DNA from: Synechococcus elongatus PCC 6301
GTDB lineage: Bacteria > Cyanobacteriota > Cyanobacteriia > Synechococcales > Synechococcaceae
DNA length: 32,000 nt
Direction: 5' to 3'
NCBI RefSeq assembly: GCF_000010065.1
Contig: NC_006576.1
Location: forward strand, 2,664,256 to 2,696,255
The notes under the pieces are model-generated. The model worked only from the letters and a program-made list of their open reading frames with translations. It had not been told where the DNA came from and did not search any database. This document shows, piece by piece, positions 1,597-32,000 of this stretch. The translations under genes and the position numbers were made by a program. How positions within the stretch are numbered: the first letter of the stretch is position 1; each line of letters opens with the position of its first letter.

Positions 1597-3897
1597 TTGC
1601 TACGGCCCACTGCACAACAACAGGCTGTGATTGATCACGAGCAGGGACGCGCTGTTGTCGTGGCAGTGGCTGGTGCTGGCAAAACCACCACGATTGCGCG
1701 GCGGATTGGCCGCTTGGTGCATCAAGTGGAAGTACCGCCTGGGCGGATTCTGGCGACAACTTTTAACCGCTATGCCAGGGGGCAAATCCGCGAAAAGCTC
1801 AACCAGCTAGCGGTGCCTGTCGGTGTGGCGGTGCGGACTCTCCACGCGCTGGCGCAACAAATCCTCAAGTTGGAAGCCGATCCTTGGCCTTTGGCCGCCG
1901 ATGGGGAGATGCGACGGCTGTTCTACGACATGCAGTCGGCGATTCGCCAGGGACGGCTCGATCTGTCGCTGGATCTGAGCAGTCATGAGCAACGGCAAAT
2001 TGCAGACCTGAATGAGGAGAGCTTCCTCAACTATCTAGGCTATCTCAAGGGCGATCTGCGCTTCAGTGCTTGGCAATTTGAACAGCTACCAACCCATCTG
2101 CAAACGGTTGCCACGCTGGAAGTGTGGCCCGAGTCGCAACGCTGGCTCAACGTTTGTGTTGACGCCTTTGAGCAATGCCGCCAAGAGGCACGGTTGCGTA
2201 GTTTTGATGATCTGTTAGTCGATGCCTGCCGTTTGCTCTGTGCAGATATGGGGATTCGGGAGCGAGTGCGATCGCGCTTTGATTTCCTGATCGTTGATGA
2301 ATATCAAGACATCAATCGCGCCCAGAACCTGATTATTTCGGTTCTGGATGAAGCCCAGCAAAACTTGATGGTGGTTGGGGATGATGACCAGACAATCTAC
2401 GAATGGCGCGGTGCCCGTCCCCAGTTGATTTTGGATAAATTGCGCGATCGCCAGTGGGTGCAGTACACCCTCGATCGCAACTTTCGATCGCGCGCGCCCC
2501 AGCTCCTGCTGGCCAATGCCCTGATTCGCCACAATCGCCTGCGATCGCCCAAGCAATTGCAGGGAACAAAGGCTTGGCAACATCATTGCGAGTGGCGATC
2601 GTTTCCCTCAGGTTCCGATCAAGCAGCGGCGATTGCCGAGCAAATTCTCGAATACCGCGATCGCGGCAAGCCCTTGGCAGAAATGGTGATTTTGATTCGC
2701 ACCTATGCCCAAACACCGCTGATAGAACAACAACTGATTGCAGCGCAACTGCCCTACGTCATCCCTGGCAGTCAGCCTTTTTATCTGCGGCGAGAAGTCA
2801 AACTGCTGCTAGCTTACTTGGAGTTTGCCGAAGCAGAGCGCAACCGTGTTCAGAATGGTCTGACGCCAGCAACCCGCGATCGCTACGACCAGTTATTCCG
2901 CGAAACATCAAGTCGTCCGAGCCGCTACCTGAAACGACCGGAGCTGCTCTCGATGCTCCAAGAAGCCTTGGACAATCCCCATTTGCCCTTGGCCACGATC
3001 ATCAGTCAACGCTGTCGCGATCGCTTGGGCCGCAACCGATCGCTGCAACGCTGGTTGGATTACCTCGGCTGGGTCTTGGGGGCTCAACCCAGTTCTGCTG
3101 CTGCCGCGATCGCCAAAATTGAGCAGCTCATCGACCTGCGGCGCTGGATCATCGACAGCGATATCTCGCCGGAGAGCGGGGCCCAGAAAGCCTTGATTAT
3201 CGACGCCTTACAAGCCTTCGCGGGCGATCGTGCGGTTCAGAGTTGGCTGCAGGAAATGGCAGCATTGCAAGAGCAGCCTCCCTTGTCCGACGAAGCCAGC
3301 GGCGTCAATCTGCTGACAGTGTTCAAAGCCAAGGGGCTGGAGTGGGACACCGTTTTCATCCCCGACTTAGATGCCGGTATTTATCCTTTTGGCTCTAGTC
3401 GCGAGAGTGAATCTGGCCCCGGGCGCAACAGCTTCGACCCGCTTTCAGAAGTCGCCCTCGATCGCAGCTTGCAGGAAGAAGAGCGCCGCATTTTGTACGT
3501 GGCTTTAACGCGCTCGATCAACAATCTGCACCTGTCTTCTGCCACTAATCAGCGATCGCCTTTTTTGCAAGAAGCGCAAATCAGCAAGATCCAAACGCGC
3601 CTGCCACGATTGCGAGCCCTTGCGACTGGTCAACTCCAACAACTCAATGATCGCCAGCGCAATCAACTAATTCATATCGATCTCGCGTTCTGTGCCCAGC
3701 AACGTCTGCATGAAGTGTTGGTCACTAGCCTGCGCAAGCTGCCTCCCCCAGCGATCGCCCAGCACTGTCACACGGTTCAACAGTGGATTCAGGACGCCAT
3801 CGAGAGCGATCGCCCACCGCTGAAGTCTGATTTAATCCAGCAGTTTTGGGCTGAGATCACGGCTGAACTCAGTGCAGAGTTGATTAGTTCGCATTGA
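1597..3897 (+). CDS. UvrD/Rep/PcrA-type superfamily 1 DNA helicase
   Basis: 766-aa ORF with a TTG start. SF1 motifs are present in order: Walker A AGAGKTT, motif II DEYQD, motif III VVGDDDQTIYEWRGA, NFRS, then TVFKAKGLEWDTVFIP and ILYVALTRS near the C-terminus. Confidence 0.85.
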   Translation: MLRPTAQQQAVIDHEQGRAVVVAVAGAGKTTTIARRIGRLVHQVEVPPGRILATTFNRYARGQIREKLNQLAVPVGVAVRTLHALAQQILKLEADPWPLAADGEMRRLFYDMQSAIRQGRLDLSLDLSSHEQRQIADLNEESFLNYLGYLKGDLRFSAWQFEQLPTHLQTVATLEVWPESQRWLNVCVDAFEQCRQEARLRSFDDLLVDACRLLCADMGIRERVRSRFDFLIVDEYQDINRAQNLIISVLDEAQQNLMVVGDDDQTIYEWRGARPQLILDKLRDRQWVQYTLDRNFRSRAPQLLLANALIRHNRLRSPKQLQGTKAWQHHCEWRSFPSGSDQAAAIAEQILEYRDRGKPLAEMVILIRTYAQTPLIEQQLIAAQLPYVIPGSQPFYLRREVKLLLAYLEFAEAERNRVQNGLTPATRDRYDQLFRETSSRPSRYLKRPELLSMLQEALDNPHLPLATIISQRCRDRLGRNRSLQRWLDYLGWVLGAQPSSAAAAIAKIEQLIDLRRWIIDSDISPESGAQKALIIDALQAFAGDRAVQSWLQEMAALQEQPPLSDEASGVNLLTVFKAKGLEWDTVFIPDLDAGIYPFGSSRESESGPGRNSFDPLSEVALDRSLQEEERRILYVALTRSINNLHLSSATNQRSPFLQEAQISKIQTRLPRLRALATGQLQQLNDRQRNQLIHIDLAFCAQQRLHEVLVTSLRKLPPPAIAQHCHTVQQWIQDAIESDRPPLKSDLIQQFWAEITAELSAELISSH

Positions 3898-5818: not shown

Positions 5819-6616
5819 ATGCAGCTCGTCGATACTCACGTTCACCTCAATTTCGACTGCTTCGCGGCAGAACTCGATGCCGTAGCAGACCAATGGCGCC
5901 AAGCGGGTGTAGCTCGCTTGGTGCATTCCTGTGTCACGCCGGCGGAATTTCCGGAACTCCAAGCCATCGCCGATCGCTTCCCGGAAGTGTCGTTGGCGGT
6001 GGGCCTGCATCCCCTTGATGTAGAGCTTTGGCAGGATGGCACGGCAACTGAAATTGAAGCGTTAGCGCGGTCTGATCAACGAGTCGTGGCGATCGGCGAA
6101 ACGGGTTTGGACTTTTTCAAGTCCGAAGACCATGTGCGTCAATACGCCGCTGTAGAAGCCCAGTTGGCGATCGCGCGATCGCTGGATCTGCCGGTAATTT
6201 TGCATTGCCGAGAGGCGGCTGCCGCCATGGCGGCTGTTTTGCGATCGCAGCAGTCTCAGCCCGGTACCCTGCGAGGGGTGATGCATTGCTGGGGCGGCAC
6301 GCCGGAGGAAACCCGCTGGTTTCTCGATCTTGGCTTCTACGTCAGCTTCAGTGGCACCCTCACCTTTGGCAAAGCAGAGACAATTCGCGACTCTGCCCGC
6401 CTTGTCCCCAGCGATCGCCTACTGATTGAAACGGATTGCCCGTCTCTTGCGCCGGTTCCCAAACGGGGCAAGCGCAACGAACCCGCTTTCGTCCAGCATG
6501 TGGCGGCTCGTATGTCTGAAGTTCGCTCTGAACCCCTTGAGGCGATCGCGGCAACCACCACCCGCAACGCCTTCGACCTGTTCCGTTTACCGACCGCTCT
6601 ACCGCAAGTTGCTTAA
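5819..6616 (+). CDS. tatD: TatD-family metal-dependent hydrolase/DNase
   Basis: 265 aa. It has an N-terminal DTHVHL metal-binding motif, [15 protein letters not shown] and ETDCP, the typical TatD/YcfH pattern. Confidence 0.9.
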
Positions 6617-16376: not shown

Positions 16377-18169
16377 ATGTCGCTCCCCATTCGCAACGTC
16401 GCGATCATTGCCCACGTTGACCACGGCAAAACAACCTTGGTTGACGCCTTGCTCAAACAATCTGGCATTTTCCGTGAGGGCGAAGACGTTCCGGATTGCG
16501 TCATGGACTCCAATGATTTGGAGCGGGAACGGGGCATTACCATTCTTTCTAAAAATACAGCGGTCAAATACAAGGACACGCTGATCAATATTGTCGATAC
16601 GCCCGGTCACGCGGACTTCGGTGGTGAAGTCGAGCGGGTTCTCGGCATGGTGGATGGCTGCATCCTGATTGTGGATGCCAACGAAGGCCCGATGCCCCAA
16701 ACGCGATTTGTGCTGAAAAAAGCGTTGGAAAAAGGGCTGCGGCCGATCGTTGTTGTGAACAAAATCGATCGCCCTCGCGCTGAGCCGATGGTTGCTGTCG
16801 ATAAGGTTCTCGATCTGTTCCTCGAACTCGGCGCCGACGATGACCAGTGCGAATTTCCCTACCTCTTTGCTTCGGGCTTGAGCGGTTTTGCGAAAGAGTC
16901 TTTGGAAGATGAAAGCAAGGACATGCAACCGCTGTTCGATGCAATTTTGCGCCATGTTCCACCCCCGATTGGGGATGTGAGCAAGCCCTTGCAGCTGCAG
17001 GTGACGACCCTCGATTATTCAGACTTCTTGGGTCGGATTGTGATCGGTAAGATCCACAACGGCACGATCAACATGGGTCAGCCGACTGCTCTGCTCAAGG
17101 AAGATGGCAGCGTGGTGCGGGGTAAAGTGACCAAGCTGCTGGGCTTTGAGGGCCTGAAGCGGATTGAAATTGAGCAAGCGACCGCCGGCATGATTGTGGC
17201 CGTCGCGGGCTTTGCTGATGCCAACATTGGTGAAACCCTGGCTTGTCCCAACGAACCTTTGGCGCTGCCGCTGATCAAGGTTGACGAGCCAACCCTGCAG
17301 ATGACCTTCTGCGTCAATGACTCACCTTTTGCTGGCAAAGAAGGCAAGTTTGTCACCAGCCGCCAAGTCCGCGATCGCCTGTTGCGTGAGCTGGAAACCA
17401 ACGTGGCCCTGCGGGTCGAAGAAACCGATTCTCCCGATCGCTTCATGGTCTCGGGGCGGGGTGAACTACACTCGGCATTCTGATCGAAACGATGCGTCGC
17501 GAAGGTTATGAGTTCCAAGTGTCGCAGCCGCAGGTGATCTTCCGGGAAGTCAATGGTCAGCCGGGCGAACCGTTTGAAACGCTCGTGATGGATGTGCCCG
17601 ACGATGCGGTCGGCAGCGTGATCGAGCGCTTGGGCACCCGCAAAGCGGAAATGCAAAACATGGAAGCTGTCGGTAATGGCCGTACGATTCTGGAGTTTGT
17701 GATTCCGGCGCGCGGTCTGATTGGCTTCCGGGGCGACTTTATCCGCCTCACCCGTGGCGAAGGGATCATGAACCACTCCTTCTTGGAGTACCGTCCTTTC
17801 TGTGGCGATCTGGAAATGCGCCGCAACGGTGTGCTGATTGCCTTTGAAGAGGGGACAGCGACTTTCTACGCCCTCAAGAACGCCGAAGATCGCGATGCTT
17901 TCTTCATTGAACCGGGCACCAAGGTCTATAAGGGCATGATTGTTGGCGAGCATAACCGGCCCCAAGATTTGGAGCTGAACGTTTGCAAAACCAAGGCACT
18001 GACCAACCACCGCTCGGCTACAGGCGATGAACTGGTACAGCTGCAAACGCCAATTCAAATGACCTTGGAACGGGCGCTGGAGTACATCGGTTCCGATGAA
18101 CTGCTGGAAGTGACGCCCGAGTCGATCCGTCTGCGGAAGCTACTGGCGAAGAAACTCGCTAAGCGTTAG
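16377..18169 (+). pseudogene. typA: Translational GTPase TypA/BipA, split into two ORFs (16377-17483 and 17492-18169) by an apparent 1-nt deletion
   Basis: ORF1 has G1 AHVDHGKTT and G3 [11 protein letters not shown] and ends ...VSGRGELHSAF*. The -1 frame reads LGILIETMRREGYEFQVSQPQVIF... from 17471. The conserved BipA motif GRGELHLxxLIExMRREG is restored if CAC-TCG (17469-17474) is read as CAC-CTC, meaning one C is missing. Confidence 0.85.
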
Positions 18170-19047: not shown

Positions 19048-19211
19048 TCACTCGAATTGCAACAGCCTTGGGATCAGGGGATCAGTCTGGCTCTGGCGGT
19101 TTGAGACTGTCACGTTCCTCAATCCTATTGCTTGGCAAACGCTAAGCTGGCAGTCCCTGATCTTTGGGAATCAGCGGTGAGAATGGTGGCACAGCTCTCG
19201 TGGGTTGGCGG

Positions 19212-21728: not shown

Positions 21729-21785
21729 GTCCATCGCTATTAAGCGACTGATGTATGGGTCTACCGTGAATAGCGACCGGCGTCC

Positions 21786-22115
21786 TTAGCGTTGCTTAGG
21801 TACTGCTGTCGATGCTGGGGCTTGTTTAGAGGCGGGTCGCCAAAACCAATAGGCTGCCAGCATCAGCGTGAAATTACCGACTAGGGTAGTGCTGGCTTGC
21901 AGGGTTACGAGCCATTCCAGTTTGGGCGTGTTGTCGTAGTAGTGCCACGTGCAAGCACAGAGAGCGCTAATCAGGGCTGGAAGCATGGCGACGGCCAGTC
22001 CAAACCAACGGCGATCGCCCTGTTCCCCCAGTCGCCAGAGGTAGAGGATGGCCAGTAGCCATTCCAGCACGCTGGAGATGTGGATGACCCAAGTGGGGAG
22101 AGATAAGGCGTGCAT
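21786..22115 (-). CDS. Small integral membrane protein (Ycf49/DUF2499-like, tentative)
   Basis: From the ATG at 22115 the protein reads MHALSLPTWVIHISSVLEWLLAILYLW… and has 3-4 hydrophobic helices. The longer track ORF (to 22247) would overlap the divergent csaB start by 75 nt, so I prefer the shorter start. Confidence 0.55.
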   Translation of the reverse strand: MHALSLPTWVIHISSVLEWLLAILYLWRLGEQGDRRWFGLAVAMLPALISALCACTWHYYDNTPKLEWLVTLQASTTLVGNFTLMLAAYWFWRPASKQAPASTAVPKQR

Positions 22116-22172: not shown

Positions 22173-23192
22173 ATGCGGGCGTTGCTCTGTGGCTATTACG
22201 GAGAGGGCAATGGGGGAGATGAGGCGCTGTTGGCAGCGCTGTTGCAACTCTTGCCGCCGACAGTGGAACCGCTGGTGCTGTCGGGGAATCCTGCGGCAAC
22301 TCGCACTTGCTACGGCGTAGAAGCTTGCGATCGCCGATCGGGGGCTGCGGTTTGGCAGGCACTGCGACGCAGTGATCTATTCATCTTTGGCGGCGGCAGC
22401 CTGATTCAAGATGTCACAAGCTGGACGAGCCCTCTCTACTACTGCGGTCTGATGGGGCTGGCACAACAGTTAGGTCTCAAAACGATCGCCTGGGCCCAGG
22501 GCATTGGGCCACTGCAGCGCAAACGAACCCGCTGGTTGGCACGCCGAACGTTTCAGCACTGCGATCGCATTACAGTGCGCGATCGCGGTTCTGCTGCCTT
22601 GCTAAAAGAGTGGGGGATTTCTGTGGCGATTGCCCCGGATCCCGTTTGGGCTTTAGAGCCGCTGCCTTTAGATCAGCCGCTGTCGAACCAAGAGGCGATC
22701 GCGGTTTGTCTGCGGCCCCACCCTGAGTTGACGCCTGAGCGCAGCGATCGCTTGAAAGCTGCCCTGACAACTCTGCAATCGCAAACCCAAGCACCCATCC
22801 TGCTGATTCCCTTCCACCACCAGCAAGATCGACCACTGGCCGCGCAATGGGCAAGCGAAATTCCCCAAGCAGAAGTTTTGGACTGGCAGCATCCGCGCCA
22901 GCTCCTCAGCTACTTTCAGTCGGTGCGATTAACGATCGCCATGCGCTTCCATGGATTAGTGATGGCAGCAGCGGCTGGAAATCGTTGCTTTGGCCTCAGC
23001 TATGACCCCAAAGTGCGCCGTTTCCTGGATGCCCTTGAGCAACCCGGCTGGGATTTGCCGGAGATTCCAGACTCTGCTGAGGCGATCGCGGCCGCTTGGT
23101 TAGAATCTTGGCAAGCAGAACCGATTCATGCCGCTGCGATCGCGGACCTCCGTCAGCAAGTGGATGTCCATCGCCAGGCTTTAGTTTTTTGA
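22173..23192 (+). CDS. csaB: Polysaccharide pyruvyl transferase (CsaB family)
   Basis: 339 aa. The N-terminus MRALLCGYYGEGNGGDEALLAALL and the segment GGGSLIQDVTS…MRFHGLVMAAAAG are typical of CsaB pyruvyl transferases. Confidence 0.85.
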   Translation: MRALLCGYYGEGNGGDEALLAALLQLLPPTVEPLVLSGNPAATRTCYGVEACDRRSGAAVWQALRRSDLFIFGGGSLIQDVTSWTSPLYYCGLMGLAQQLGLKTIAWAQGIGPLQRKRTRWLARRTFQHCDRITVRDRGSAALLKEWGISVAIAPDPVWALEPLPLDQPLSNQEAIAVCLRPHPELTPERSDRLKAALTTLQSQTQAPILLIPFHHQQDRPLAAQWASEIPQAEVLDWQHPRQLLSYFQSVRLTIAMRFHGLVMAAAAGNRCFGLSYDPKVRRFLDALEQPGWDLPEIPDSAEAIAAAWLESWQAEPIHAAAIADLRQQVDVHRQALVF

Positions 23193-23251
23193 TGTGGGTC
23201 GCTTGACCATTTCAGCTTGACTCTCGTCAGGATTAACGCCACAGAGCAATA

Positions 23252-23677
23252 TTAATCTTCCAGGGCAACCATCACATCGCTGGATTTGATCATGGTGTAG
23301 GCCTCCTGATCGACTTGTAGTTGTAGCCCTTCGACAGAAGCCCGAGTGATGACAGAAACGACTGTGACGTTTGGTGCAATTTCTAACAAAACTTCTGCAT
23401 TCACCTGACCCATCTGAATCTGGCGAATGACAGCAGTAAAGACGTTGCGAGCGCTGACCCGCATCGGTCGAGGTCCGTCTTGACTGACTGGTTGATGATG
23501 GGAGGCTGGTGACGTCGGTGCAGAATTGGAAGGCGTTGAAGCTGATGGCAGCGATCGCACGAGTTCACGCAAAACATCGGTTTTAGATCGTTGAGTCTGT
23601 TCGCAATAGTTCTCTAAAAGTTGTTGCTCAGCACTGGGTAGCTGAAAGGTAATCCAGCCCTGATCTTTGCGCGGCAT
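23252..23677 (-). CDS. Ribbon-helix-helix (CopG-like) and Mop/TOBE molybdate-binding fusion; probable molybdate-responsive regulator
   Basis: The C-terminus MRVSARNVFTAVIRQIQMGQVNAEVLLEIAPNVTVVSVITRASVEGLQLQVDQEAYTMIKSSDVMVAL is a textbook Mop domain. The N-terminus (GWITFQLPSAEQQLLENYCEQTQRSKTDVLRELVRSL) fits a beta-alpha-alpha RHH pattern. The gene is divergent from modA. I prefer the ATG at 23677 over the TTG at 23689. Confidence 0.8.
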   Translation of the reverse strand: MPRKDQGWITFQLPSAEQQLLENYCEQTQRSKTDVLRELVRSLPSASTPSNSAPTSPASHHQPVSQDGPRPMRVSARNVFTAVIRQIQMGQVNAEVLLEIAPNVTVVSVITRASVEGLQLQVDQEAYTMIKSSDVMVALED

Positions 23678-23683
23678 CCTGAA

Positions 23684-23700
23684 TACCAATAGAGTTGGTA
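23684..23700. promoter_or_regulatory. Inverted repeat TACCAA-N5-TTGGTA in the mop/modA divergent spacer (candidate operator)
   Basis: These are perfect 6-bp arms (23684-23689 and 23695-23700) lying 7 nt upstream of the regulator ATG. A TTGACA hexamer follows at 23706-23711, facing modA. The regulatory function is inferred only. Confidence 0.3.
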
Positions 23701-23767
23701 AGATCTTGACATAGGGTTAGTAGCTCTTCCATGATTGAGTAATTAGTGAAGAAAAATCGTCAACCCA

Positions 23768-24583
23768 ATGGGTGCTCAGCGCTGGCGATATGGTCTGCTT
23801 GCGGGACTTGTAGCGATCGCCTGCACCATTGGATTTCCACCCTTTTTGTCCCTCCTTGCCCCTCAGTTATCTCCGCCTGCGAAGGGGTCGGAACTCCTTG
23901 TGGCGGCAGCGGCTAGTTTGCAAAATCCCTTGCAGGAGATTACGACACTCGAGTCTGTCGATGCTCCCAAAATGACAGTTCGCTACACCTTTGCAGCCTC
24001 TGGAGCACTACAGCGACAGATTGAACAAGGCGCACCGATTGATGTCTTTATTTCTGCTGCCCAAAAGCCTATGCAGCTTCTGCAAAAACAAGGCTTAGTT
24101 TTACCAGAGACTCAAACAGAACTGCTCACGAATCAACTGGTTTTAATTGTTCCTAAGATTGCCGATAGCAATATCACGTCTTTTCAAGACCTCTTAAAAC
24201 CGACTATTCAGCGCCTTGCGATTGGCGAGCCTCGGAGTGTTCCTGCTGGCCAGTATGCGATTGAAGTCTTGCAAAACCTTGGCATTCTTGATCAACTGCA
24301 GTCCAAGCTTGTACTCAGCAATAATGTCAAAGCAGTGTTGACAGCCGTTGAGACCGGTAACGTTGATGCTGGGATTGTTTATCTCACGGATGCACAAGGC
24401 TCTAATCAAGTCATTGTGACTTGCACGGCAGACCCAGAGCTACACTCGCATATCATTTACCCTGTTGCAGTCCTTCGATCGAGTCAATCCATTCCTCAAG
24501 CCAAGCAATACCTCAAATTCCTCAAGGGTGAGCTTGCGCAGGCAGTTTTTAAACGCTACGGATTTGGAGTCCCAGCTGCTTGA
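23768..24583 (+). CDS. modA: Molybdate ABC transporter substrate-binding protein
   Basis: 271 aa with an N-terminal signal/anchor. It carries ModA-type motifs (…VAAAASL…YTFAASGALQRQIEQGAPIDVFISA…, VPAGQYA, GNVDAGIVY). Confidence 0.9.
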   Translation: MGAQRWRYGLLAGLVAIACTIGFPPFLSLLAPQLSPPAKGSELLVAAAASLQNPLQEITTLESVDAPKMTVRYTFAASGALQRQIEQGAPIDVFISAAQKPMQLLQKQGLVLPETQTELLTNQLVLIVPKIADSNITSFQDLLKPTIQRLAIGEPRSVPAGQYAIEVLQNLGILDQLQSKLVLSNNVKAVLTAVETGNVDAGIVYLTDAQGSNQVIVTCTADPELHSHIIYPVAVLRSSQSIPQAKQYLKFLKGELAQAVFKRYGFGVPAA

Positions 24584-25245
24584 CTGAGGTATTGAGCCTT
24601 CTGACCCCCCTGTGGGTTTCCCTCAAAGTCGCTCTCTCATCAACCCTAGTTGTGTTGGGAGTTGGGACCTTAGCGGGCTATCAGATGAGTCGCTATCGAG
24701 GGCGATCGCGATCGCTGATTGAGGGTTGTTTAATTGCACCGCTGATTATGCCGCCAACGGTCGTCGGCTTTATTCTATTGATGGTGTTGGGAAAGAGTAG
24801 TGTGATCGGGCAGTTTCTTGCTCGTTATGATTTGCAAATTATTTTCACGACTACCGGAGCTGCGATCGCAGCTAGTATTGTTGCTTTCCCATTAATGTAT
24901 CGAGCGGCTCTGGGAGCATTTGAGCAAATTGATGCCCTCCTTCTCGATGCGGCTCGCTTGGATGGAGCTTCAGAGGTAGAAGTGTTTTTCTGTATTGCCC
25001 TGCCTTCAGCCTGGCCTGGCATCCTAGCAGGAACAGTGCTGACCTTTGCACGGGCCTTGGGTGAATTTGGAGCAACGCTGATGGTTGCTGGGAATATCCC
25101 CGGTCAAACACAAACGATGCCGATGGCCATCTACTTTGCAGTGGAAGCGGGTCAAACTCAAGAAGCTTGGTTTTGGACAGTGATCATTTTGGGTACGGCC
25201 TATTGCGGCATTGTTGCTGTCAATGCTTGGCAAGCCTTACGCTAG
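24580..25245 (+). CDS. modB: Molybdate ABC transporter permease
   Basis: 221 aa and polytopic. It has the ABC permease EAA loop (LDAARLDGASEVEVFFCIALP) and the ModB-like segment FARALGEFGATLMVAGNIPGQTQTMP. The TTG start overlaps the modA stop (TTGA). Confidence 0.9.
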   Translation: MTEVLSLLTPLWVSLKVALSSTLVVLGVGTLAGYQMSRYRGRSRSLIEGCLIAPLIMPPTVVGFILLMVLGKSSVIGQFLARYDLQIIFTTTGAAIAASIVAFPLMYRAALGAFEQIDALLLDAARLDGASEVEVFFCIALPSAWPGILAGTVLTFARALGEFGATLMVAGNIPGQTQTMPMAIYFAVEAGQTQEAWFWTVIILGTAYCGIVAVNAWQALR

Positions 25246-25300
25246 AACCGTATTCCTGCAGTCACGATCTGGCGGGATTGAATCACAGGCGATCGCCCTA

Positions 25301-26062
25301 ATGCCCAGCGCTGTTCTCGACCTGAAATTTAAGATTTGGCGGCAGGCATCTGCGCAAGCTACAGGTCAGTTCAAAACCTATGCGTTGCAGCAAGCCTCCG
25401 CCGATCTATCTCTGCTGGAGGCTCTCGACTCTTTGAATGAGCAGCTAATTACTCAAGGGGAAGACCCGATCGCTTTCGACCACGATTGTCGAGAGGGAAT
25501 TTGTGGGTCCTGTGGATTTTTGGTGAATGGGCAAGCCCATGGGCCACTAGCCGGTACCAGTGTTTGTCAACTCTATCTGCGTCACTTCCAGTCTGGCGAT
25601 TGTCTGACGCTAGAACCTTGGCGGGCTCAGGCGTTCCCCTTGGTTAAAGACTTAGTTGTCGATCGTAGTGCTCTCGATCGCATCATCCAAGCAGGAGGAT
25701 ACTGCTCGGTCAACACGGGGAATGCACCTGAGGCCAACGCAATTTTGATTAGTCAGGCGGAGGCTGCTCAAGCCTTTGATGCCGCCGTTTGTATTGGTTG
25801 TGGAGCTTGTGTCGCTGCCTGTAAAAATGCTTCTGCCAGCTTGTTTACTGCAGCTAAACTGGCGCACTTATCGCTGCTCCCCCAAGGGCAACCCGAGCGA
25901 TCGCAGCGCGTCTTAAACCTCGTTACCCAGATGGAAGCAGAGGGCTTTGGCAGTTGCAGCAGCCTCTTGGAATGTCAGGCCGTTTGTCCCAAGGAAATCT
26001 CCGCCGACTGGATCAGCCGTATGCAACGTCAATACTGGCAAGCCCTCTGGCAGCAACGTTAA
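25301..26062 (+). CDS. sdhB: Succinate dehydrogenase/fumarate reductase iron-sulfur subunit
   Basis: It has a 2Fe-2S motif CREGICGSCG…C, a 4Fe-4S motif CIGCGACVAACKN, and a third cluster motif C…CQAVCPKEI. I prefer the ATG at 25301 (MPSAVLDLKFKIWRQ); the track start at 25211 overlaps modB. Confidence 0.85.
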   Translation: MPSAVLDLKFKIWRQASAQATGQFKTYALQQASADLSLLEALDSLNEQLITQGEDPIAFDHDCREGICGSCGFLVNGQAHGPLAGTSVCQLYLRHFQSGDCLTLEPWRAQAFPLVKDLVVDRSALDRIIQAGGYCSVNTGNAPEANAILISQAEAAQAFDAAVCIGCGACVAACKNASASLFTAAKLAHLSLLPQGQPERSQRVLNLVTQMEAEGFGSCSSLLECQAVCPKEISADWISRMQRQYWQALWQQR

Positions 26063-26184
26063 GACTGGATCAGTAAATCCTAGGATTCAGTTGTTCTAGA
26101 GACTCGAGTACATTAATTAGCGCTATGAAGTTGTCGCCCGAGCTATAGCTGCGCTAGGCTTGCAGCAACTTTTGATGCTTTCAC

Positions 26185-28392
26185 ATGGATCTACTATCAA
26201 ATTTGCGGCGATCTTCGATTGTCTTGAACCGATTTTATGTGAAGTCATTAAGTCAGTCAGATTTGACTGCTTACGAGTATCGGTGCATTTTTAAAAAGAC
26301 TCCAGAGCTAGGAGATGAGAAACGTTTACTGGCTAGCATTTGCTATAAGTTAGGTGCAATCGCCGTCAGGATCGGCAGCAATATTATCACCAAAGAAGCC
26401 GTTAGACCCGAAAAATTACAGGGGCATGATTGGCAACTTGTACAAATGGGAACTAAACAGCTCGATTGCCGTAATGACGCTCATCGATGTGCTTTGGAAA
26501 CCTTTGAGCGGAAATTTTTAGAAAGAGACTTGTCTGCTAGTTCTCAAACAGAGGTCCGAAAAGCAGCTGAAGGGGGATTGATTTGGTGGGTAGTAGGAGC
26601 CAAAGGTATTGAAAAAAGTGGCAACGGTTGGGAAGTTCATCGCGGTCGAAGAATTGATGTCAGTCTAGATGCCGAAGGGAATCTCTATCTAGAAATTGAT
26701 ATCCATCATCGCTTCTATACTCCTTGGACGGTTCATCAATGGCTAGAACAATATCCAGAGATACCTCTCAGCTATGTTCGCAATAACTATCTTGATGAAA
26801 GGCATGGGTTTATCAATTGGCAATATGGCAGGTTCACTCAAGAGAGGCCGCAAGATATTTTATTAGATTGTTTAGGAATGAGTTTGGCAGAATATCATCT
26901 TAATAAAGGCGCCACAGAAGAGGAAGTACAGCAGTCTTATGTAGTCTATGTCAAACCTATTAGCTGGCGAAAAGGTAAGCTAACAGCCCATCTCTCACGC
27001 AGGCTATCGCCCAGTCTGACCATGGAGATGCTCGCCAAAGTGGCAGAAGACAGCACTGTATGCGATCGCGAAAAACGTGAAATCAGAGCTGTTTTTAAGA
27101 GCATCAAACAGTCTATTAACCAGCGTCTCCAGGAAGCCCAAAAGACAGCTAGTTGGATCCTCACAAAAACCTACGGGATATCGAGTCCTGCGATCGCACT
27201 CTCTTGCGATGGTTATCTGTTGCCTGCCGCTAAGTTACTAGCTGCGAATAAGCAGCCTGTCTCCAAGACTGCGGATATTCGCAATAAAGGATGTGCCAAG
27301 ATTGGTGAAACCAGTTTTGGCTACCTTAATCTTTATAACAATCAACTTCAATATCCTTTGGAGGTTCATAAATGTCTACTGGAAATTGCAAACAAGAACA
27401 ATCTGCAACTATCCCTCGATCAACGTCGAGTCCTAAGTGATTATCCTCAGGACGATCTCGACCAGCAAATGTTTTGGCAAACTTGGTCTAGCCAAGGAAT
27501 CAAAACTGTTCTAGTCGTTATGCCTTGGGATTCCCATCACGATAAACAGAAAATTCGTATTCAAGCGATTCAGGCAGGCATTGCTACTCAATTTATGGTG
27601 CCGCTACCAAAGGCTGATAAGTATAAAGCTCTTAACGTCACTCTTGGACTATTGTGCAAAGCAGGTTGGCAGCCTATCCAACTTGAATCCGTTGATCATC
27701 CCGAAGTAGCTGATCTGATTATTGGCTTTGATACCGGCACGAATCGAGAGCTCTACTATGGAACTTCTGCCTTTGCCGTTCTTGCTGATGGACAGAGCCT
27801 AGGATGGGAACTACCTGCTGTACAGGGGGGAGAAACATTCTCAGGTCAAGCGATTTGGCAAACTGTCTCGAAGTTGATCATCAAGTTTTATCAGATTTGT
27901 CAGCGCTATCCTCAGAAGCTGTTGTTAATGCGAGATGGATTAGTCCAGGAGGGTGAATTTCAACAAACAATCGAGCTACTAAAAGAGAGAAAAATTGCTG
28001 TTGATGTTATCAGTGTTCGGAAAAGTGGAGCTGGACGTATGGGGCAAGAAATCTATGAAAATGGTCAGCTTGTCTACCGAGATGCAGCCATCGGTAGTGT
28101 AATCTTACAGCCAGCCGAACGCTCATTCATCATGGTGACGAGTCAACCTGTGAGTAAAACGATTGGAAGTATTCGACCACTACGAATCGTGCATGAATAT
28201 GGCAGTACGGATCTAGAGCTTTTGGCTCTGCAAACCTATCATCTGACCCAGCTTCATCCAGCGAGTGGTTTCCGCTCTTGCCGCCTTCCTTGGGTGCTGC
28301 ATTTAGCCGATCGGAGTAGTAAAGAGTTTCAGCGAATTGGACAAATTAGTGTTTTGCAAAATATCAGTCGCGATAAGTTAATTGCGGTCTAA
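26185..28392 (+). CDS. Long prokaryotic Argonaute (pAgo) with N/PAZ/MID/PIWI length and a complete DEDD catalytic tetrad
   Basis: 735 aa. The PIWI RNase-H tetrad is read directly: D516 in LIIGFDTGTN (27730-27732), E550 in VQGGETFSG (27832-27834), D584 in LLLMRDGLV (27934-27936) and D709 in VLHLADRSS (28309-28311). The spacing of 34/34/125 residues is close to TtAgo/CbAgo. The MID 5'-end pocket is H452-K456 (HHDKQK), Q469 (GIATQF) and K492 (LLCKAG). Confidence 0.92.
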   Translation: MDLLSNLRRSSIVLNRFYVKSLSQSDLTAYEYRCIFKKTPELGDEKRLLASICYKLGAIAVRIGSNIITKEAVRPEKLQGHDWQLVQMGTKQLDCRNDAHRCALETFERKFLERDLSASSQTEVRKAAEGGLIWWVVGAKGIEKSGNGWEVHRGRRIDVSLDAEGNLYLEIDIHHRFYTPWTVHQWLEQYPEIPLSYVRNNYLDERHGFINWQYGRFTQERPQDILLDCLGMSLAEYHLNKGATEEEVQQSYVVYVKPISWRKGKLTAHLSRRLSPSLTMEMLAKVAEDSTVCDREKREIRAVFKSIKQSINQRLQEAQKTASWILTKTYGISSPAIALSCDGYLLPAAKLLAANKQPVSKTADIRNKGCAKIGETSFGYLNLYNNQLQYPLEVHKCLLEIANKNNLQLSLDQRRVLSDYPQDDLDQQMFWQTWSSQGIKTVLVVMPWDSHHDKQKIRIQAIQAGIATQFMVPLPKADKYKALNVTLGLLCKAGWQPIQLESVDHPEVADLIIGFDTGTNRELYYGTSAFAVLADGQSLGWELPAVQGGETFSGQAIWQTVSKLIIKFYQICQRYPQKLLLMRDGLVQEGEFQQTIELLKERKIAVDVISVRKSGAGRMGQEIYENGQLVYRDAAIGSVILQPAERSFIMVTSQPVSKTIGSIRPLRIVHEYGSTDLELLALQTYHLTQLHPASGFRSCRLPWVLHLADRSSKEFQRIGQISVLQNISRDKLIAV

Positions 28393-28482
28393 GCGTGATG
28401 GCTCAGTACTCGCCCGAGCCACGGCTGGATGCAATTTATGGGTACAGCCTCTAGGATGGCGTCAACGCAGAGGGCGAAGCCG

Positions 28483-28914
28483 ATGGAGATGCCCCGCATC
28501 AGTCGCGATACAGCCCGCATGTTGGTCAATTACCTGACCTATCAAGCGGTCTGTGTGATTCGGGATCAATTGGCTGAGACGAATCCGGCCGGTGCATACC
28601 GGCTGCAGGTTTTCTCGGCTGAGTTCTCCTTTCAGGATGGAGAAGCTTACCTAGCAGCTCTACTCAACCACGATCGCGAATTGGGCCTGCGGGTGATGAC
28701 AGTACGGGAACATTTGGCCGAGCATATTCTCGACTACCTGCCGGAGATGACGATCGCTCAGATCCAGGAGGCGAATATTAATCATCGCCGTGCTTTGCTT
28801 GAACGGCTGACGGGTCTTGGGGCAGAGCCTAGCTTGCCGGAGACCGAGGTGAGCGATCGCCCCAGTGACTCAGCCACTCCTGATGATGCTTCTAATGCCT
28901 CCCATGCGGATTGA
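28483..28914 (+). CDS. rbcX: RuBisCO assembly chaperone RbcX
   Basis: [35 protein letters not shown]…[21 protein letters not shown]…[11 protein letters not shown] matches the conserved RbcX core (…LxSYLTYQAV…ETNP…TVRE-LAE…LPEM…NHRR-LLERLT). The start is chosen at the ATG at 28483 by analogy to the RbcX N-terminus. The track start at 28429 is possible. Confidence 0.88.
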
Positions 28915-29584
28915 AATTGTTCAACACGTTGATTTTGAAGGGCCTGCCGCGATCGCCCCGTGGCTTGTAGAACGGGGTCATCAACTCTCGACAACGCTGC
29001 TCTCGGCCGGAGATCCATTGCCGGATTGGCGCGATCGTGAAGCGGCGATCATCATGGGTGGGCCGATGAGTGTCGATGAGAATGAGGACTATCCTTGGCT
29101 GCTGACGGAAAAGCAGTGGCTGCAAACGGCGATCGCTGCCGATAAAAAGCTTGTTGGCATTTGCTTGGGGGCGCAACTGCTCGCGCAAGCCCTTGGAGCA
29201 ACGGTCGCACCGGGGCCAGAGCCAGAAATTGGTTGGTTCCCGATTCAGTTCAGCGCGGCGGCGCAGGCGATCGCGGGCATTCCGGCGGAACTGATTGCCT
29301 TTCATTGGCATGGGGACCAGTTTTCCCTGCCACCGGCAGCAATCTCCCTCGCCCAAAGTGCTGTCTGTCCTCAACAGGGTTTTCTCTGGGGCGATCGTAT
29401 TTTGGGGTTGCAGTGCCATCTGGAAATGACTCCTGCAGCGATCGCCACGCTCACCAAAGCGGCGGCAGCGGATCTGCGCCCTGCTCGTTTCATCCAGTCC
29501 CCTCAGACCATGCTGGCCGGTTGTGATCGCTGTTCCAGTAACCATGCCGTGCTATTTGCACTGCTGACTAATTTGGGATTCTGA
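28904..29584 (+). CDS. Class I glutamine amidotransferase-like protein (GuaA-type GATase1 domain only)
   Basis: From the ATG at 28904 it reads [17 protein letters not shown]… It has the nucleophile elbow GICLGAQLL and a His-x-Glu pair in LQCHLE. The start overlaps the rbcX stop by 11 nt. Confidence 0.85.
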
Positions 29585-29937
29585 TCCTCCCTGACGGCAT
29601 TGACCTATTCGGCGGTAGTAGACCCATACTTCTTGTCTTGAGCAAGGTGGAGCGATCGCGGCAAGAATGTTCTGTCTCAATCAACGATGCCTTGATGACA
29701 GCGATCGCCCTGCCTCGGCGTAGCGCGTTGGTATCCAGACACCAGGAAGATTTTTGTGGCATTGCGGATCTGAAATCACTCAGCCCTTGGGGCAATCAGA
29801 AATTTGAGCCAGAGTTTTTGCCAAAATTTTTCACTGCACAGCTGTAGATGGTAGGTCAGTAGAACTCGTATCAAGGGTAACGGTTCTTATTGGTTGACTT
29901 TAATACTTTAAAATTCTGACTCACCTCTCACAAGCCA

Positions 29938-30336
29938 GTGCTCTTACTCAACTCTTTTTTGAAGAACTGGATGGCAGTTGTTTGTATCCTAAGCACAGCG
30001 GCTTGCACCTCAAATCAATCAGGCAAACTCTTTGAATCTGTTCAACCTGCGAGAGGCTCAGGAAACAGTCAGCAGACAATTGTAATTGACGTCGAAAACA
30101 AGTATAAAATTGCTCGCCAACAAGGTGATCTAGAACAGATCTGTAAACGAGCTCAGCTTACTGCAAGCACTTATTTTTATATACAAGGTTATGACTCTAC
30201 TACCCATCAGTTTTGGAAGTCAATTGAGAGTCGAGACTGTAAAGCATTTCAAGCAGAGGAATCTCGTATGCTCAAAGAAGAGGCTATTCAAATGATTAGT
30301 CCTTTCCGGAGTGTGATGAATCAAACGATTGATTAA
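29938..30336 (+). CDS. Small secreted protein or lipoprotein, orphan
   Basis: 132 aa. The N-terminal hydrophobic segment ends in LSTAAC (lipobox-like, with Cys followed by TSNQSG). The gene is AT-rich. The start is GTG at 29938 or ATG at 29971. I recognise no family. Confidence 0.5.
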   Translation: MLLLNSFLKNWMAVVCILSTAACTSNQSGKLFESVQPARGSGNSQQTIVIDVENKYKIARQQGDLEQICKRAQLTASTYFYIQGYDSTTHQFWKSIESRDCKAFQAEESRMLKEEAIQMISPFRSVMNQTID

Positions 30337-30485
30337 GAGAGTTAAGATAAATTGAACAGAGCTAATGACTTATATCAACACTTGCTGAATGGGTGGTCGA
30401 GAACCTCTCTAAGCAAGGAAACTTACATAGCAACAGTTATACCTCTGCTTGTGAAATTTACTCTGTGGCTGTAATCATTGTGATG

Positions 30486-30788
30486 CTAAGACCTACCTAG
30501 CTTGGAGACCTGAAGAGACTGTATAAGCCATAAATGAGCTGGCTTGATACTGACCGGTTCAAAGTCAATGCAGCAGATAGCTTCTTCAGAGAATGCTTGG
30601 CAAGGGCGAACAGTGCACTTAAGCCTGTGGTCGCCGGTGGAAAAGGCACATCGGTTACAGGGAACTTGATGCAATCGTTTTAGCTGTGCTGCTCCATCCT
30701 GTAAGGCACATAAAACAGATAAGAAAAAGAGTGTTAGAACTAGCCAAATGCAAATGGGGCAAACTGAGTTAATGATGATTTGATTCAT
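30486..30788 (-). CDS. Small Cys-rich membrane protein (one TM segment plus a CxxC…C…C…CC putative metal-binding domain)
   Basis: 100 aa. The TM segment is ICIWLVLTLFFLSVLCAL, followed by VPCNRCAFSTGDHRLKCTVRPCQAFSEEAICCIDFE. The ATG is at 30788, 37 nt downstream of the isiC-like stop on the same strand. Confidence 0.55.
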   Translation of the reverse strand: MNQIIINSVCPICIWLVLTLFFLSVLCALQDGAAQLKRLHQVPCNRCAFSTGDHRLKCTVRPCQAFSEEAICCIDFEPVSIKPAHLWLIQSLQVSKLGRS

Positions 30789-30825
30789 GATCGTAAGAAG
30801 ATGTAACCAGGCTTAATGTAAAGCT

Positions 30826-31536
30826 CTAAGCAAAAACTGCTAGCTGATTCCAGAATTTAGTAATTTGTTGGCTAACTTGCTCGGGATATATGCAGTGGAA
30901 GAAATGGCGTCCGCTTAGACAAATCCACATCCGAGAAAGAGCATGATACAAATGTTGTCGCCAAGCTTTAATTTGCTCTTGGCTGATAATGATGTCATCT
31001 GCACTCCCACAGACAAGAAGCGGGACTTTGACAGCAATGGGTGGGAAACTTGCTGAATTTAGAAGACTATGTAGCGACAGTGACTCGTAGAGATCTTGTT
31101 TTAAAGCATGGGTTACTGTTGGGCTCGTCTTTCTACACCCTAGTAGCCGATCGCTGATTTTTTGTAAGAGGATCTGCTGATCTTCAAGTCTATCTCGGCG
31201 CTGGTTATAGTAATAAGATTGCCAATTAACTGCTGGGTCAACACCAACTGAAAGAATGGTGAGCGATCGCACATGTTCAGGATAATGATGGGCGTAGAGC
31301 AAACCTAATAGTCCCCCTGTCCCATGACCAAGGAGGTGGAGCGGACGATCGTAACTTTTTAGATAATCATGTAGTAATACTAAGGCTGTATCCAGAGAAG
31401 CCGCTTCATCAGGATCTTGAAGGTACTCCCAATGAGCGATCGCAGTAGATTGAGCAAGTGTTTGTAACAGTGGACGATCAAACATTTGTAGTGCGGGACT
31501 GACACTGATCCAAACAGCATCAATAGACGACAGCAT
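30826..31536 (-). CDS. isiC: Alpha/beta-hydrolase-fold protein (isiC-like, downstream of flavodoxin)
   Basis: 236 aa. It has the elbow HLLGHGTGGLLG, and later GSADD and GRHFFH in the positions expected for the acid and His. It sits directly downstream of isiB on the same strand, as I recall for the isiABC arrangement in S. elongatus. The symbol is tentative. Confidence 0.75.
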   Translation of the reverse strand: MLSSIDAVWISVSPALQMFDRPLLQTLAQSTAIAHWEYLQDPDEAASLDTALVLLHDYLKSYDRPLHLLGHGTGGLLGLLYAHHYPEHVRSLTILSVGVDPAVNWQSYYYNQRRDRLEDQQILLQKISDRLLGCRKTSPTVTHALKQDLYESLSLHSLLNSASFPPIAVKVPLLVCGSADDIIISQEQIKAWRQHLYHALSRMWICLSGRHFFHCIYPEQVSQQITKFWNQLAVFA

Positions 31537-31625
31537 TGGGAATACCTATCTAGGCAATGAGAATCAGAGAATGAGCTGTGTTAGACCATGGAATACTCTG
31601 TGCAACACAACTCGCTCAACCAAGA

Positions 31626-32000
31626 TTAAAGACCGAACTCTGACTTTAGCTGGCTGACCCAAGTCTTAATTCGATTCTTTGTGAGATCAGGTTGATTGTC
31701 TTCATCAATTGCTAAACCAACAAACTGATTATTGCGTACAGCTTTTGACTCATTGAAGTCATAGCCTTCAATAGGCCAATAGCCAACTGTTTGACTACCT
31801 AAAGAGCTAATTTTTTCTTCTAGAATGCCCATAGCATCCTGAAAGTTATCGGAATAGCCTACTTGATCACCCGCTCCAAAGTAGGCAACTTTCTTCCCTT
31901 GAAAGTTGACTGAGTCTAAATCATCATAGATTCCTTCCCAGTCACTTTGCAGTTCACCAACATTCCAAGTAGGACAACCGATAATTAAATAATCATAGGC
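31626..32000 (-). CDS. isiB: Long-chain flavodoxin, partial (N-terminus beyond the right window edge)
   Basis: The track shows only the last 68 aa. Manual translation of the same minus frame to the window edge gives AYDYLIIGCPTWNVGELQSDWEGIYDDLDSVNFQGKKVAYFGAGDQVGYSDNFQDAMGILEEKISSLGSQTVGYWP…, the classic flavodoxin FMN-binding core. Confidence 0.92.
   Translation of the reverse strand, partial: AYDYLIIGCPTWNVGELQSDWEGIYDDLDSVNFQGKKVAYFGAGDQVGYSDNFQDAMGILEEKISSLGSQTVGYWPIEGYDFNESKAVRNNQFVGLAIDEDNQPDLTKNRIKTWVSQLKSEFGL

What the first reader, a model, noticed from the sequence alone, without database searches (positions are those of the whole stretch)
26185..28392. Stand-alone, catalytically intact long Argonaute wedged between sdhB and rbcX
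The 735-aa ORF has every element needed for guide-directed slicing. The tetrad is D516/E550/D584/D709, with the spacing seen in active pAgos. An H-K-Q-K pocket sits in the MID region (H452, K456, Q469, K492), which predicts 5'-phosphorylated guides. About 450 aa lie upstream, enough for N, L1, PAZ and L2 domains. Unlike short pAgo systems, no nuclease, SIR2, TIR, APAZ or helicase partner lies on either flank; the neighbours are respiration and carbon-fixation housekeeping genes. As I recall, an Ago from S. elongatus has been studied in vitro as a DNA-guided DNA nuclease, so the protein class is not new. Its regulation, its natural targets and the reason it is retained at this locus in a polyploid, naturally competent cyanobacterium remain open. 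This is the clearest immune or genome-surveillance module in the window.
Basis: partly seen in the sequence, partly recalled or inferred. Interest (0 to 1): 0.85.

Follow-up and report, generated by a model that had tools for sequence, protein, structure and literature searches.

The report
SeAgo, a known cyanobacterial Argonaute nuclease
This gene is the already well-studied Argonaute DNA-cutting defence enzyme (SeAgo) of Synechococcus elongatus, a horizontally acquired single gene sitting between two housekeeping genes, so the reading is right but not new.

Summary
The 735-aa ORF at 26185-28392 (+) is real. It is a full-length, catalytically intact long-A prokaryotic Argonaute. Its sequence is exactly S. 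elongatus PCC 6301 syc2520_d and differs from the characterised SeAgo of PCC 7942 at one residue (G548 versus R548). The tetrad D516/E550/D584/D709 is confirmed by alignment to TtAgo D478/E512/D546/D660 and by family conservation. Q469 and K492 are correct. H452 and K456 are neither aligned to pocket residues nor conserved; the true partners are K454 and R458. The "stand-alone" claim holds: no partner gene flanks ago here, and none recurs in 59 related loci. The "function open" claim is outdated. Published work shows SeAgo is a DNA-guided DNA nuclease that lowers natural transformation and blocks RSF1010 plasmids, with unlinked cas4-like, uvrD and recJ genes scoring in the same screen. Verdict: already known; interest is low.

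The parts
26185..28392 (+). ago (SeAgo, PCC 6301 allele): long-A pAgo of 735 aa. N/L1 covers about residues 1-184, PAZ 185-276, L2 about 277-358, MID about 359-474 and PIWI about 442-714 to the C-terminus.
   Evidence: ORF; Pfam PAZ_3, Piwi and weak Ago_Mid; full-length TtAgo alignment, E = 6.7e-73; PADLOC pAgo 2.3e-302; exact match to BAD80710.1/WP_011244830.1; AF2 model pLDDT 86.3, TM up to 0.82 to TtAgo.
27730..28311 (+). Span holding the RNase-H-type catalytic tetrad codons: D516 (27730-27732), E550 glutamate finger (27832-27834), D584 (27934-27936) and D709 (28309-28311).
   Evidence: These residues align to TtAgo D478/E512/D546/D660. They are invariant or 42/43 conserved in the family alignment.
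27544..27660 (+). Span holding the MID 5'-phosphate pocket codons: K454, R458, (T468) Q469 and K492. The C-terminal V735 aligns with TtAgo V685.
   Evidence: TtAgo alignment. Conservation: K454 41/43, R458 43/43, Q469 42/43, K492 43/43, against H452 3/43 and K456 19/43.
27826..27828 (+). Codon 548 is GGG (Gly), two residues before the E550 glutamate finger. PCC 7942 and every other S. elongatus variant have CGG (Arg). The change is private to this strain and creates a run of six Gs.
   Evidence: The family column is R 30/43 and G 1/43 but is otherwise variable.
26063..26184 (+). The 122-nt sdhB-ago spacer (ago leader). No sigma-70-like promoter was scored on the + strand. A weak terminator-like hairpin lies at 26148-26166. 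There is a 1-nt indel relative to PCC 7942 at 26079.
   Evidence: The fold is no better than shuffled sequence (z = -0.26). There are no Rfam hits.
26129..26151 (+). Left copy of the 23-nt imperfect direct repeat, AGTTGTCGCCCGAGCTATAGCTG.
   Evidence: the repeat finder family D3, 18/23 identical. 0 of 5000 shuffles reach the score for spacer against spacer. z = 3.96, p = 0.005 in the symmetric 150-nt test.
28405..28427 (+). Right copy of the direct repeat, AGTACTCGCCCGAGCCACGGCTG, immediately upstream of the rbcX region.
   Evidence: Both copies are identical in PCC 7942 and the UTEX 3055-type strain. MAFFT places the empty-site TCGCTCGACTC stretch opposite the repeat, but that similarity is not significant.
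25211..26062 (+). Upstream neighbour sdhB, the succinate dehydrogenase/fumarate reductase Fe-S subunit. The likely true start is near 25301. It is not part of the system and marks the left edge of the insertion site.
   Evidence: Pfam Fer2_3/Fer4; NCBIfam NF005746, 5e-126; Synpcc7942_1533 in the supplement of PMC10653904.
28429..28914 (+). Downstream neighbour rbcX. The conserved start is more likely 28456 or 28483 than 28429. It marks the right edge of the insertion site.
   Evidence: Pfam RbcX, 4e-41; alignment with the empty-site genomes; Synpcc7942_1535 is annotated to start 91 nt after the end of ago.

Best explanation
The ORF encodes SeAgo, a stand-alone long-A prokaryotic Argonaute that works as a DNA-guided DNA endonuclease. 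The likely mechanism runs as follows. The protein loads small single-stranded DNA guides. The guide's 5'-phosphate sits in the MID pocket formed by K454, R458, Q469 and K492. The C-terminal V735 carboxylate probably contributes through a divalent metal, as V685 does in TtAgo. The guide's 3' end is held by PAZ. Complementary DNA pairs with the guide. The PIWI RNase-H centre (D516, D584, D709, completed by insertion of the E550 glutamate finger) cuts the target opposite guide positions 10/11 or 11/12. In the cell this lowers the success of incoming DNA, both natural transformation and RSF1010-type plasmids.

The gene is a horizontally acquired, low-GC, single-gene cassette that landed in the sdhB-rbcX spacer of one part of the S. 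elongatus lineage. It has since been kept under purifying selection.

Shown here: identity, architecture, tetrad, pocket residues, stand-alone context, empty site, composition, and selection. Taken from the literature for the R548 allele: DNA-guided DNA cleavage and the in vivo phenotypes. Inferred: the metal and C-terminus contact, the cleavage register, and the assumption that the G548 allele behaves like R548.
For: Identity: exact match to the S. elongatus PCC 6301 protein, with 734/735 residues shared with PCC 7942 SeAgo ABB57564.1.

Architecture and active site.

[quoted passage not shown] Its deletion raises natural transformation and allows RSF1010 maintenance, and selection for RSF1010 yields ago mutations (PMC10653904). 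ago is the top RB-TnSeq hit, fitness 5.58, t = 16.7. SeAgo uses 5'-P guides, and 5'-OH guides give multiple cut sites (PMC9599953).

Stand-alone: no defence-type neighbour by Pfam or PADLOC. In 59 related loci no neighbour family recurs in more than 6 loci, and there is no Cas4-like cluster.

Acquisition: ago has GC 0.44 and GC3 0.39, against 0.53-0.69 GC3 for host genes. Ago is more than 3 GC points below its flanks in 31 of 46 loci and never more than 3 points above. None of the 59 other Ago loci has sdhB or rbcX nearby. The divergent S. elongatus genomes CP168031 and CP144288 have modA-modB-sdhB-rbcX-GATase with no ago.

Retention: contig L060 carries an 85% aa orthologue between the same sdhB tail and rbcX head. 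dN/dS is 0.08 at dS of about 1.0.
Against: No biochemistry was or could be done here on the G548 allele. G548 lies next to the glutamate finger and is unique among 43 homologues, so full activity of this exact protein is assumed rather than shown.

A defence role is not the only published one. SeAgo also targets the chromosomal ter region and aids cell division under gyrase inhibition in E. coli (PMC10269773).

Gain versus loss at the empty site is not formally resolved. Recombination between the flanking direct repeats could produce an Ago-less spacer, but the empty-site spacer shows no significant similarity to the window's spacers, so neither direction is demonstrated.
Confidence: 0.93

Rival explanations
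1. SeAgo's main cellular job is chromosome maintenance rather than immunity. It would help finish replication or decatenate sister chromosomes in a polyploid cell by cutting at the terminus, as proposed for TtAgo. Interference with foreign DNA would then be a side effect.
For: SeAgo-bound small DNAs are enriched at replication origin and terminus (PMC10653904 introduction). In E. coli, SeAgo targets ter sites and rescues growth and division under ciprofloxacin (PMC10269773). UvrD and RecJcy, which act at replication forks, scored in the same screen. Purifying selection (dN/dS 0.08) fits any useful function.
Against: The ago deletion strain has wild-type morphology, growth and circadian rhythms (PMC10653904). 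A whole S. elongatus lineage lacks the gene at this site. The gene is patchily distributed and compositionally foreign in most hosts, which is typical of accessory defence genes rather than core replication functions.
Confidence: 0.2
2. SeAgo is not truly stand-alone. It would be the effector half of a split system whose guide-generating partner, the solo Cas4-like nuclease and possibly UvrD/RecJcy, is encoded elsewhere. That would make it a dispersed equivalent of APACE1.
For: cas4-like, uvrD and recJcy mutants also permit RSF1010 (PMC10653904). ACE1 (Cas4 family) enhances interference by other cyanobacterial long-A pAgos, and those authors suggest the S. elongatus solo-Cas4 phenotype may reflect lost guide generation. 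Cyanobacteria mostly lack RecBCD/AddAB (PMC12094033).
Against: No Cas4/PD-(D/E)xK gene lies in the window next to ago, and none recurs in the 59 related loci. SeAgo loads guides by itself when expressed in E. coli (PMC10269773). No epistasis data were found.
Confidence: 0.3
3. In this particular strain (PCC 6301) the gene is a weakened or inactive allele. R548G beside the glutamate finger would impair cleavage, so the intact appearance would be misleading.
For: G548 is private to this sequence. R occurs in 30/43 homologues and in all other S. elongatus variants. The same window carries a frameshifted typA and five other private differences.
Against: The column is variable (T, P, V, S, M and K also occur), and TtAgo has Ala at the aligned position. 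The tetrad and pocket are intact. The private differences could equally be sequencing errors in an old assembly.
Confidence: 0.08

Closest known systems
SeAgo (Synpcc7942_1534, ABB57564.1) of Synechococcus elongatus PCC 7942
   Same: 734 of 735 residues are identical. The locus is the same (sdhB-ago-rbcX) and the flanking spacers match apart from a 1-nt indel.
   Different: G548 replaces R548 (GGG versus CGG). There is one synonymous change at 27690 and a 1-nt indel at 26079 in the leader.
TtAgo of Thermus thermophilus (PDB 3DLB, 4NCB and others)
   Same: The N-PAZ-MID-PIWI architecture matches over the full length and the DEDD tetrad is at aligned positions. The 5'-phosphate pocket is basic at its first position (Tt R418/K422/Q433/K457 versus K454/R458/Q469/K492) and both proteins end in Val. 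Fold match: E = 6.7e-73, TM up to 0.82. Both reduce natural transformation (PMC10653904).
   Different: Sequence identity is only about 28%. SeAgo is about 50 residues longer. SeAgo comes from a mesophile and TtAgo from a thermophile. In TtAgo the first two pocket positions are R then K; here they are K then R.
APACE1 systems (CtAgo/MaAgo + ACE1; PMC12094033)
   Same: These are cyanobacterial long-A pAgos with intact tetrads that carry out siDNA-guided DNA interference. A Cas4-family nuclease is genetically implicated in S. elongatus as well.
   Different: No ACE1/Cas4 gene is co-encoded here, and none appears in the 59 loci of this clade. The S. elongatus Cas4-like gene is unlinked.
CbAgo of Clostridium butyricum (PDB 6QZK)
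   Same: It is a stand-alone mesophilic DNA-guided DNA nuclease that acts against plasmids and phages.
   Different: It is a distant relative: E = 1.4e-11 over PIWI only, and TM about 0.63. CbAgo depends on RecBCD for guide generation, and most cyanobacteria lack RecBCD (PMC12094033).

Membership tests
Long-A (catalytically active) prokaryotic Argonaute | Full N-L1-PAZ-L2-MID-PIWI architecture | tested here: met
   Pfam PAZ_3 at 185-276, Piwi at 442-714 and weak Ago_Mid at 359-474. Residues 5-733 align to TtAgo 2-683. AF2 model TM up to 0.82 to TtAgo.
Long-A (catalytically active) prokaryotic Argonaute | Intact DEDX catalytic tetrad in PIWI | tested here: met
   D516/E550/D584/D709 align to TtAgo D478/E512/D546/D660. 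The positions are 43/43, 43/43, 43/43 and 42/43 conserved.
Long-A (catalytically active) prokaryotic Argonaute | MID pocket residues for the guide 5'-phosphate | tested here: met
K454/R458/Q469/K492 align to TtAgo R418/K422/Q433/K457 and are 41-43/43 conserved.
Long-A (catalytically active) prokaryotic Argonaute | Guide-dependent cleavage of complementary DNA | not testable with these tools
   Reported for the R548 allele (Olina et al. 2020, as summarised in PMC10653904). Not tested for G548.
SeAgo orthologue group (S. elongatus) | Near-identity to Synpcc7942_1534 and the same sdhB-ago-rbcX locus | tested here: met
   734/735 identical. Only 6 nt differ over about 9.8 kb. The locus table is in the paper's supplement.
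APACE1 (long-A pAgo + ACE1/Cas4 operon) | Cas4-family PD-(D/E)xK nuclease co-encoded with the pAgo | tested here: not met
   The neighbours are sdhB, rbcX, GATase and modAB. There are no PADLOC or Pfam nuclease hits next to ago. No recurrent Cas4-like neighbour appears in 59 related loci.
Short pAgo systems (SPARTA/SPARSA/SPARDA) and long-B pAgo operons | Loss of catalytic residues and/or PAZ, with an APAZ-TIR, APAZ-SIR2 or nuclease effector gene adjacent | tested here: not met
   The tetrad and PAZ are present. No TIR, SIR2, APAZ or effector gene flanks the ORF.

The most novel reading that the evidence does not exclude
The ago gene may be a discrete, roughly 2.28-kb single-gene cassette bounded by 23-nt direct repeats. 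It would have been inserted into, and could be precisely lost from, the sdhB-rbcX spacer by a short-homology mechanism during natural transformation. That would explain the Ago-plus and Ago-minus S. elongatus lineages, and would make this locus a tractable example of how stand-alone pAgos move between genomes without any mobile-element genes.
Probability: 0.12. Interest if true: 0.4.

Novelty: already known. Interest (0 to 1): 0.15.

Why it matters
The gene matters because SeAgo is the main barrier to genetic manipulation of a leading cyanobacterial model. It is also one of the few pAgos studied in its native host. All of that is already published.

This check adds four things of modest value:
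- A corrected MID-pocket assignment, K454/R458 in place of H452/K456.
- A documented empty site in a sister lineage and a syntenic 85% orthologue in another. Together these frame the gene as an old, selectively retained horizontal acquisition.
- The observation that this Ago clade stays at about 40% GC whatever the host.
- A strain-private R548G change beside the glutamate finger, which anyone using PCC 6301 should know about.

Tried and rejected
1. The flanking 23-nt repeat as an ancestral target-site duplication. The repeat is significant in the window. The orthologous L060 locus shows no significant left-right repeat, and the empty-site spacer shows no significant local similarity to either window spacer. 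Only 2 of 47 other Ago loci have flanking repeats with z of at least 4. I demoted it to an unexplained local feature.

2. The UvrD-family helicase at 1597..3897 as the uvrD partner from the RB-TnSeq screen. The six top locus tags (1534, 1746, 2273, 2515, 0992, 0517) all lie outside this window's tag range of roughly 1517-1540. Rejected.

3. A conserved partner gene in the clade. Neighbour clustering over 59 loci found nothing recurrent.

4. A structured RNA or riboswitch in the ago leader. There are no Rfam hits and the fold z-score is -0.26. No tRNA is available as an integration site.

5. Measuring tetrad and pocket distances in the AF2 model. The coordinates are not exposed to scripts.

6. 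Reading Olina et al. 2020 (PMC7237159). The paper is not held, so I relied on summaries in later papers.

7. A self-hit for S. elongatus in genome contigs. None was returned. The PCC 7942 locus was obtained through the look-up of encoding contigs instead.
Full report
**Observation.** The window holds a 735-codon ORF at 26185..28392 on the + strand. It starts at an ATG, and an in-frame stop lies 12 nt upstream. Pfam finds an Argonaute PAZ domain (PAZ_3, 2.5e-20, residues 185-276) and a Piwi domain (2.9e-15, residues 442-714). A sub-threshold Ago_Mid match covers residues 359-474 (0.006). The PADLOC pAgo model scores 2.3e-302. phmmer against PDB sequences aligns residues 5-733 to residues 2-683 of Thermus thermophilus Argonaute at E = 6.7e-73. 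An AlphaFold2 model built on 43 homologues is confident (mean pLDDT 86.3, pTM 0.82). Its best Foldseek matches are all TtAgo guide/target complexes, with target-normalised TM up to 0.82.

**Catalytic residues.** In the TtAgo alignment D516, E550, D584 and D709 fall on TtAgo D478, E512, D546 and D660, which form the established tetrad. Across 43 homologues spanning 41-100% identity, the first three are invariant. The fourth is D in 42 and H in 1, which is an allowed DEDX variant. This part of the finding is confirmed.

**MID pocket.** The TtAgo 5'-phosphate ligands are R418, K422, (S432) Q433 and K457; that residue list comes from my own knowledge of the TtAgo structures. They align to K454, R458, (T468) Q469 and K492. 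H452 aligns to TtAgo E416 and K456 to R420. Conservation agrees with this. K454 is present in 41/43, R458 in 43/43, Q469 in 42/43 and K492 in 43/43. H452 is present in only 3/43 and K456 in 19/43. The C-terminal residue is Val in 36/43, as in TtAgo V685. The pocket is therefore K-R-Q-K rather than H-K-Q-K. The prediction of 5'-phosphate binding survives, and the literature agrees: SeAgo uses 5'-P guides, and 5'-OH guides give multiple cut sites (PMC9599953).

**Identity.** The protein is an exact match to syc2520_d (BAD80710.1/WP_011244830.1) of Synechococcus elongatus PCC 6301. It differs from the characterised SeAgo of PCC 7942 (ABB57564.1, Synpcc7942_1534) at one residue, G548 in place of R548. 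At the DNA level this is GGG versus CGG and creates a run of six Gs. Over about 9.8 kb the window differs from CP000100 at six positions:
- 23105
- 23660
- 26079, a 1-nt indel in the ago leader
- 27690, synonymous within ago
- 27826, the R548G change
- 29070

At all six, PCC 7942 and a UTEX 3055-type strain agree with each other against the window. Residue 548 lies two positions before the glutamate finger. The column is mostly R (30/43) but tolerates T, P, V, S, M and K, and TtAgo has Ala there. I regard the change as probably neutral or a sequencing error, but this is untested.

**What is already known.** The following comes from PMC10653904, which also summarises Olina et al. 2020:
- It co-purifies with small DNAs from all over the genome, enriched at the replication origin and terminus.
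- It is the strongest negative determinant of natural transformation.
- Its deletion has no effect on growth, morphology or circadian rhythm.

In that paper's RB-TnSeq data ago is the top hit, with fitness 5.58 and t = 16.7. The supplement also gives the sdhB(1533)-ago(1534)-1535 layout. In E. coli, SeAgo targets the ter region and aids division under ciprofloxacin (PMC10269773).

**Stand-alone status.** The immediate neighbours are modA, modB and sdhB upstream, and rbcX and a class-I glutamine amidotransferase downstream. No PADLOC or Pfam defence-type gene sits next to ago. A UvrD/Rep-family helicase (1597..3897) and a TatD DNase (5819..6616) lie about 20 kb or more away. The helicase is not the uvrD of the published screen, because none of the six top locus tags falls in this window's range.

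I retrieved 59 related Ago loci from species-representative genomes and clustered all ORFs within 5 kb of each Ago. No family recurs in more than 6 loci, and no Cas4-like cluster appears. This clade is genuinely single-gene. One qualifier applies. [quoted passage not shown] Cas4-family ACE1 boosts other cyanobacterial long-A pAgos, and those authors speculate that the S. elongatus solo Cas4 supplies guides (PMC12094033).

**Origin of the locus (new here, as far as I could find).** Several lines point to horizontal acquisition:
- ago has GC 0.44 and GC3 0.39, whereas surrounding host genes have GC3 of 0.53-0.69.
- In 31 of 46 related loci Ago is more than 3 GC points below its flanks, and it is never more than 3 points above.
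- The nearest homologues (about 60-65% identity) stay at 0.39-0.41 GC in hosts with flanking GC from about 0.42 to 0.61.
- None of the 59 loci has sdhB, rbcX, GATase or modAB nearby.

Two divergent S. elongatus genomes (CP168031, CP144288; sdhB 93-94% identical) have pyruvyl-transferase, modA, modB, sdhB, rbcX and GATase in that order. sdhB lies about 160 bp from rbcX and there is no ago, which makes this an empty site.

A short metagenomic contig (L060, SRR27453602) carries an 85%-identical Ago between an sdhB tail and an rbcX head. It is a syntenic orthologue in a further lineage. Between that orthologue and the window, dN/dS is 0.08 at dS of about 1.0. GC3 has risen only to 0.39-0.43, from about 0.28-0.34 in outgroup Agos. 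The simplest reading is an old horizontal acquisition, retained under purifying selection and only partly ameliorated. Whether the Ago-less lineage never had the gene or lost it is not resolved.

**Flanking repeat (unexplained).** A 23-nt imperfect direct repeat (18/23 identical, with a 10-nt exact core TCGCCCGAGC) lies at 26129-26151 and 28405-28427, bracketing the ORF. Spacer-against-spacer alignment beats all 5000 shuffles. A symmetric 150-nt test gives z = 3.96 and p = 0.005. Both copies are identical in PCC 7942 and the UTEX 3055-type strain. In a MAFFT alignment the empty-site spacers carry a related stretch, TCGCTCGACTC, just upstream of rbcX.

Three results argue against a target-site duplication. 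The L060 orthologous locus has no significant left-right repeat. Local alignments of either window spacer to the empty-site spacer are not significant. Flanking repeats are not general in Ago loci, with only 2 of 47 at z of at least 4. I therefore do not claim a target-site duplication and record the repeat as a local curiosity.

**Regulation.** The 122-nt leader has no scored sigma-70-like promoter on the + strand and only a weak terminator-like hairpin. It has no Rfam match and no excess structure. Insertions in sdhB give a sub-threshold positive fitness in the RSF1010 screen (0.91, t = 3.3). That hint is compatible with partial transcriptional read-through from sdhB and is inference only.

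**Verdict.** The comparative details add context and do not change what the element is.

Noticed in passing
window 16377-18169 (frameshift near 17469-17472): typA/bipA is split into two ORFs, 16377..17483 and 17492..18169, which match TypA profile positions 1-361 and 369-591. The cause is a -1 frameshift: the window reads CACTCGGCATTCTGA where the conserved frame needs CAC CTC GGC ATT CTG ATC. This is either a real pseudogene in this strain or an assembly error.
   Followed up: partly
window 22190-31990: All six differences from PCC 7942 (23105, 23660, 26079 indel, 27690, 27826, 29070) are private to the window. PCC 7942 and a UTEX 3055-type strain agree with each other at every one. Three of the six fall in or just upstream of ago.
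   Followed up: partly
window 19164-21728: An 854-aa ORF combines a cNMP-binding domain, a sigma-54-interaction AAA+ domain with its lid, and a NapH-like 4Fe-4S membrane portion. This architecture is unexpected in a cyanobacterium, which to my knowledge has no sigma-54. The region 20000-22000 also has a strongly negative AT skew, down to -0.30.
   Followed up: no
window 1597-3897: A 766-aa UvrD/Rep/PcrA-family helicase scores below every NCBIfam equivalog cut-off. Its position falls outside the locus tags of the six top hits of the published RSF1010 RB-TnSeq screen, and the paper gives PcrA a tag (Synpcc7942_2168) outside this window's range. It is therefore a further SF1 helicase paralogue.
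   Followed up: partly
window 23252-25245 and 29600-31600; loci L061/L063: Relative to the Ago-less S. elongatus lineage, the window has an extra TOBE-domain gene (23252..23689, - strand) between the pyruvyl-transferase and modA genes. modA is only 66% identical in protein sequence, against 85-94% for its neighbours. A low-GC block (0.41-0.44) of hypothetical genes follows the GATase where the other lineage has tatC. The ago site therefore lies in a generally variable stretch.
   Followed up: partly
window 28429-28483: The mechanical rbcX ORF start at 28429 is probably too early. The ATG at 28429 is CTG in the Ago-less genomes, although the surrounding DNA aligns. The conserved ATGs lie at 28456 and 28483, and the PCC 7942 annotation starts 91 nt after the end of ago, which corresponds to 28483.
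   Followed up: partly
L002/L003 (NZ_DVEH01000047.1): A Thermosynechococcus MAG contig carries two full-length Ago copies about 13.7 kb apart. Both are about 63% identical to SeAgo and have GC 0.41, against flanks of 0.52.
   Followed up: no
L035 (OV696605.1, Gloeomargaritales): The Ago match covers only residues 191-735, so the gene is N-terminally truncated. The 150-nt flanks share a direct repeat of more than 60 nt (score 63, z about 42), which suggests disruption by, or association with, a repeated element.
   Followed up: no
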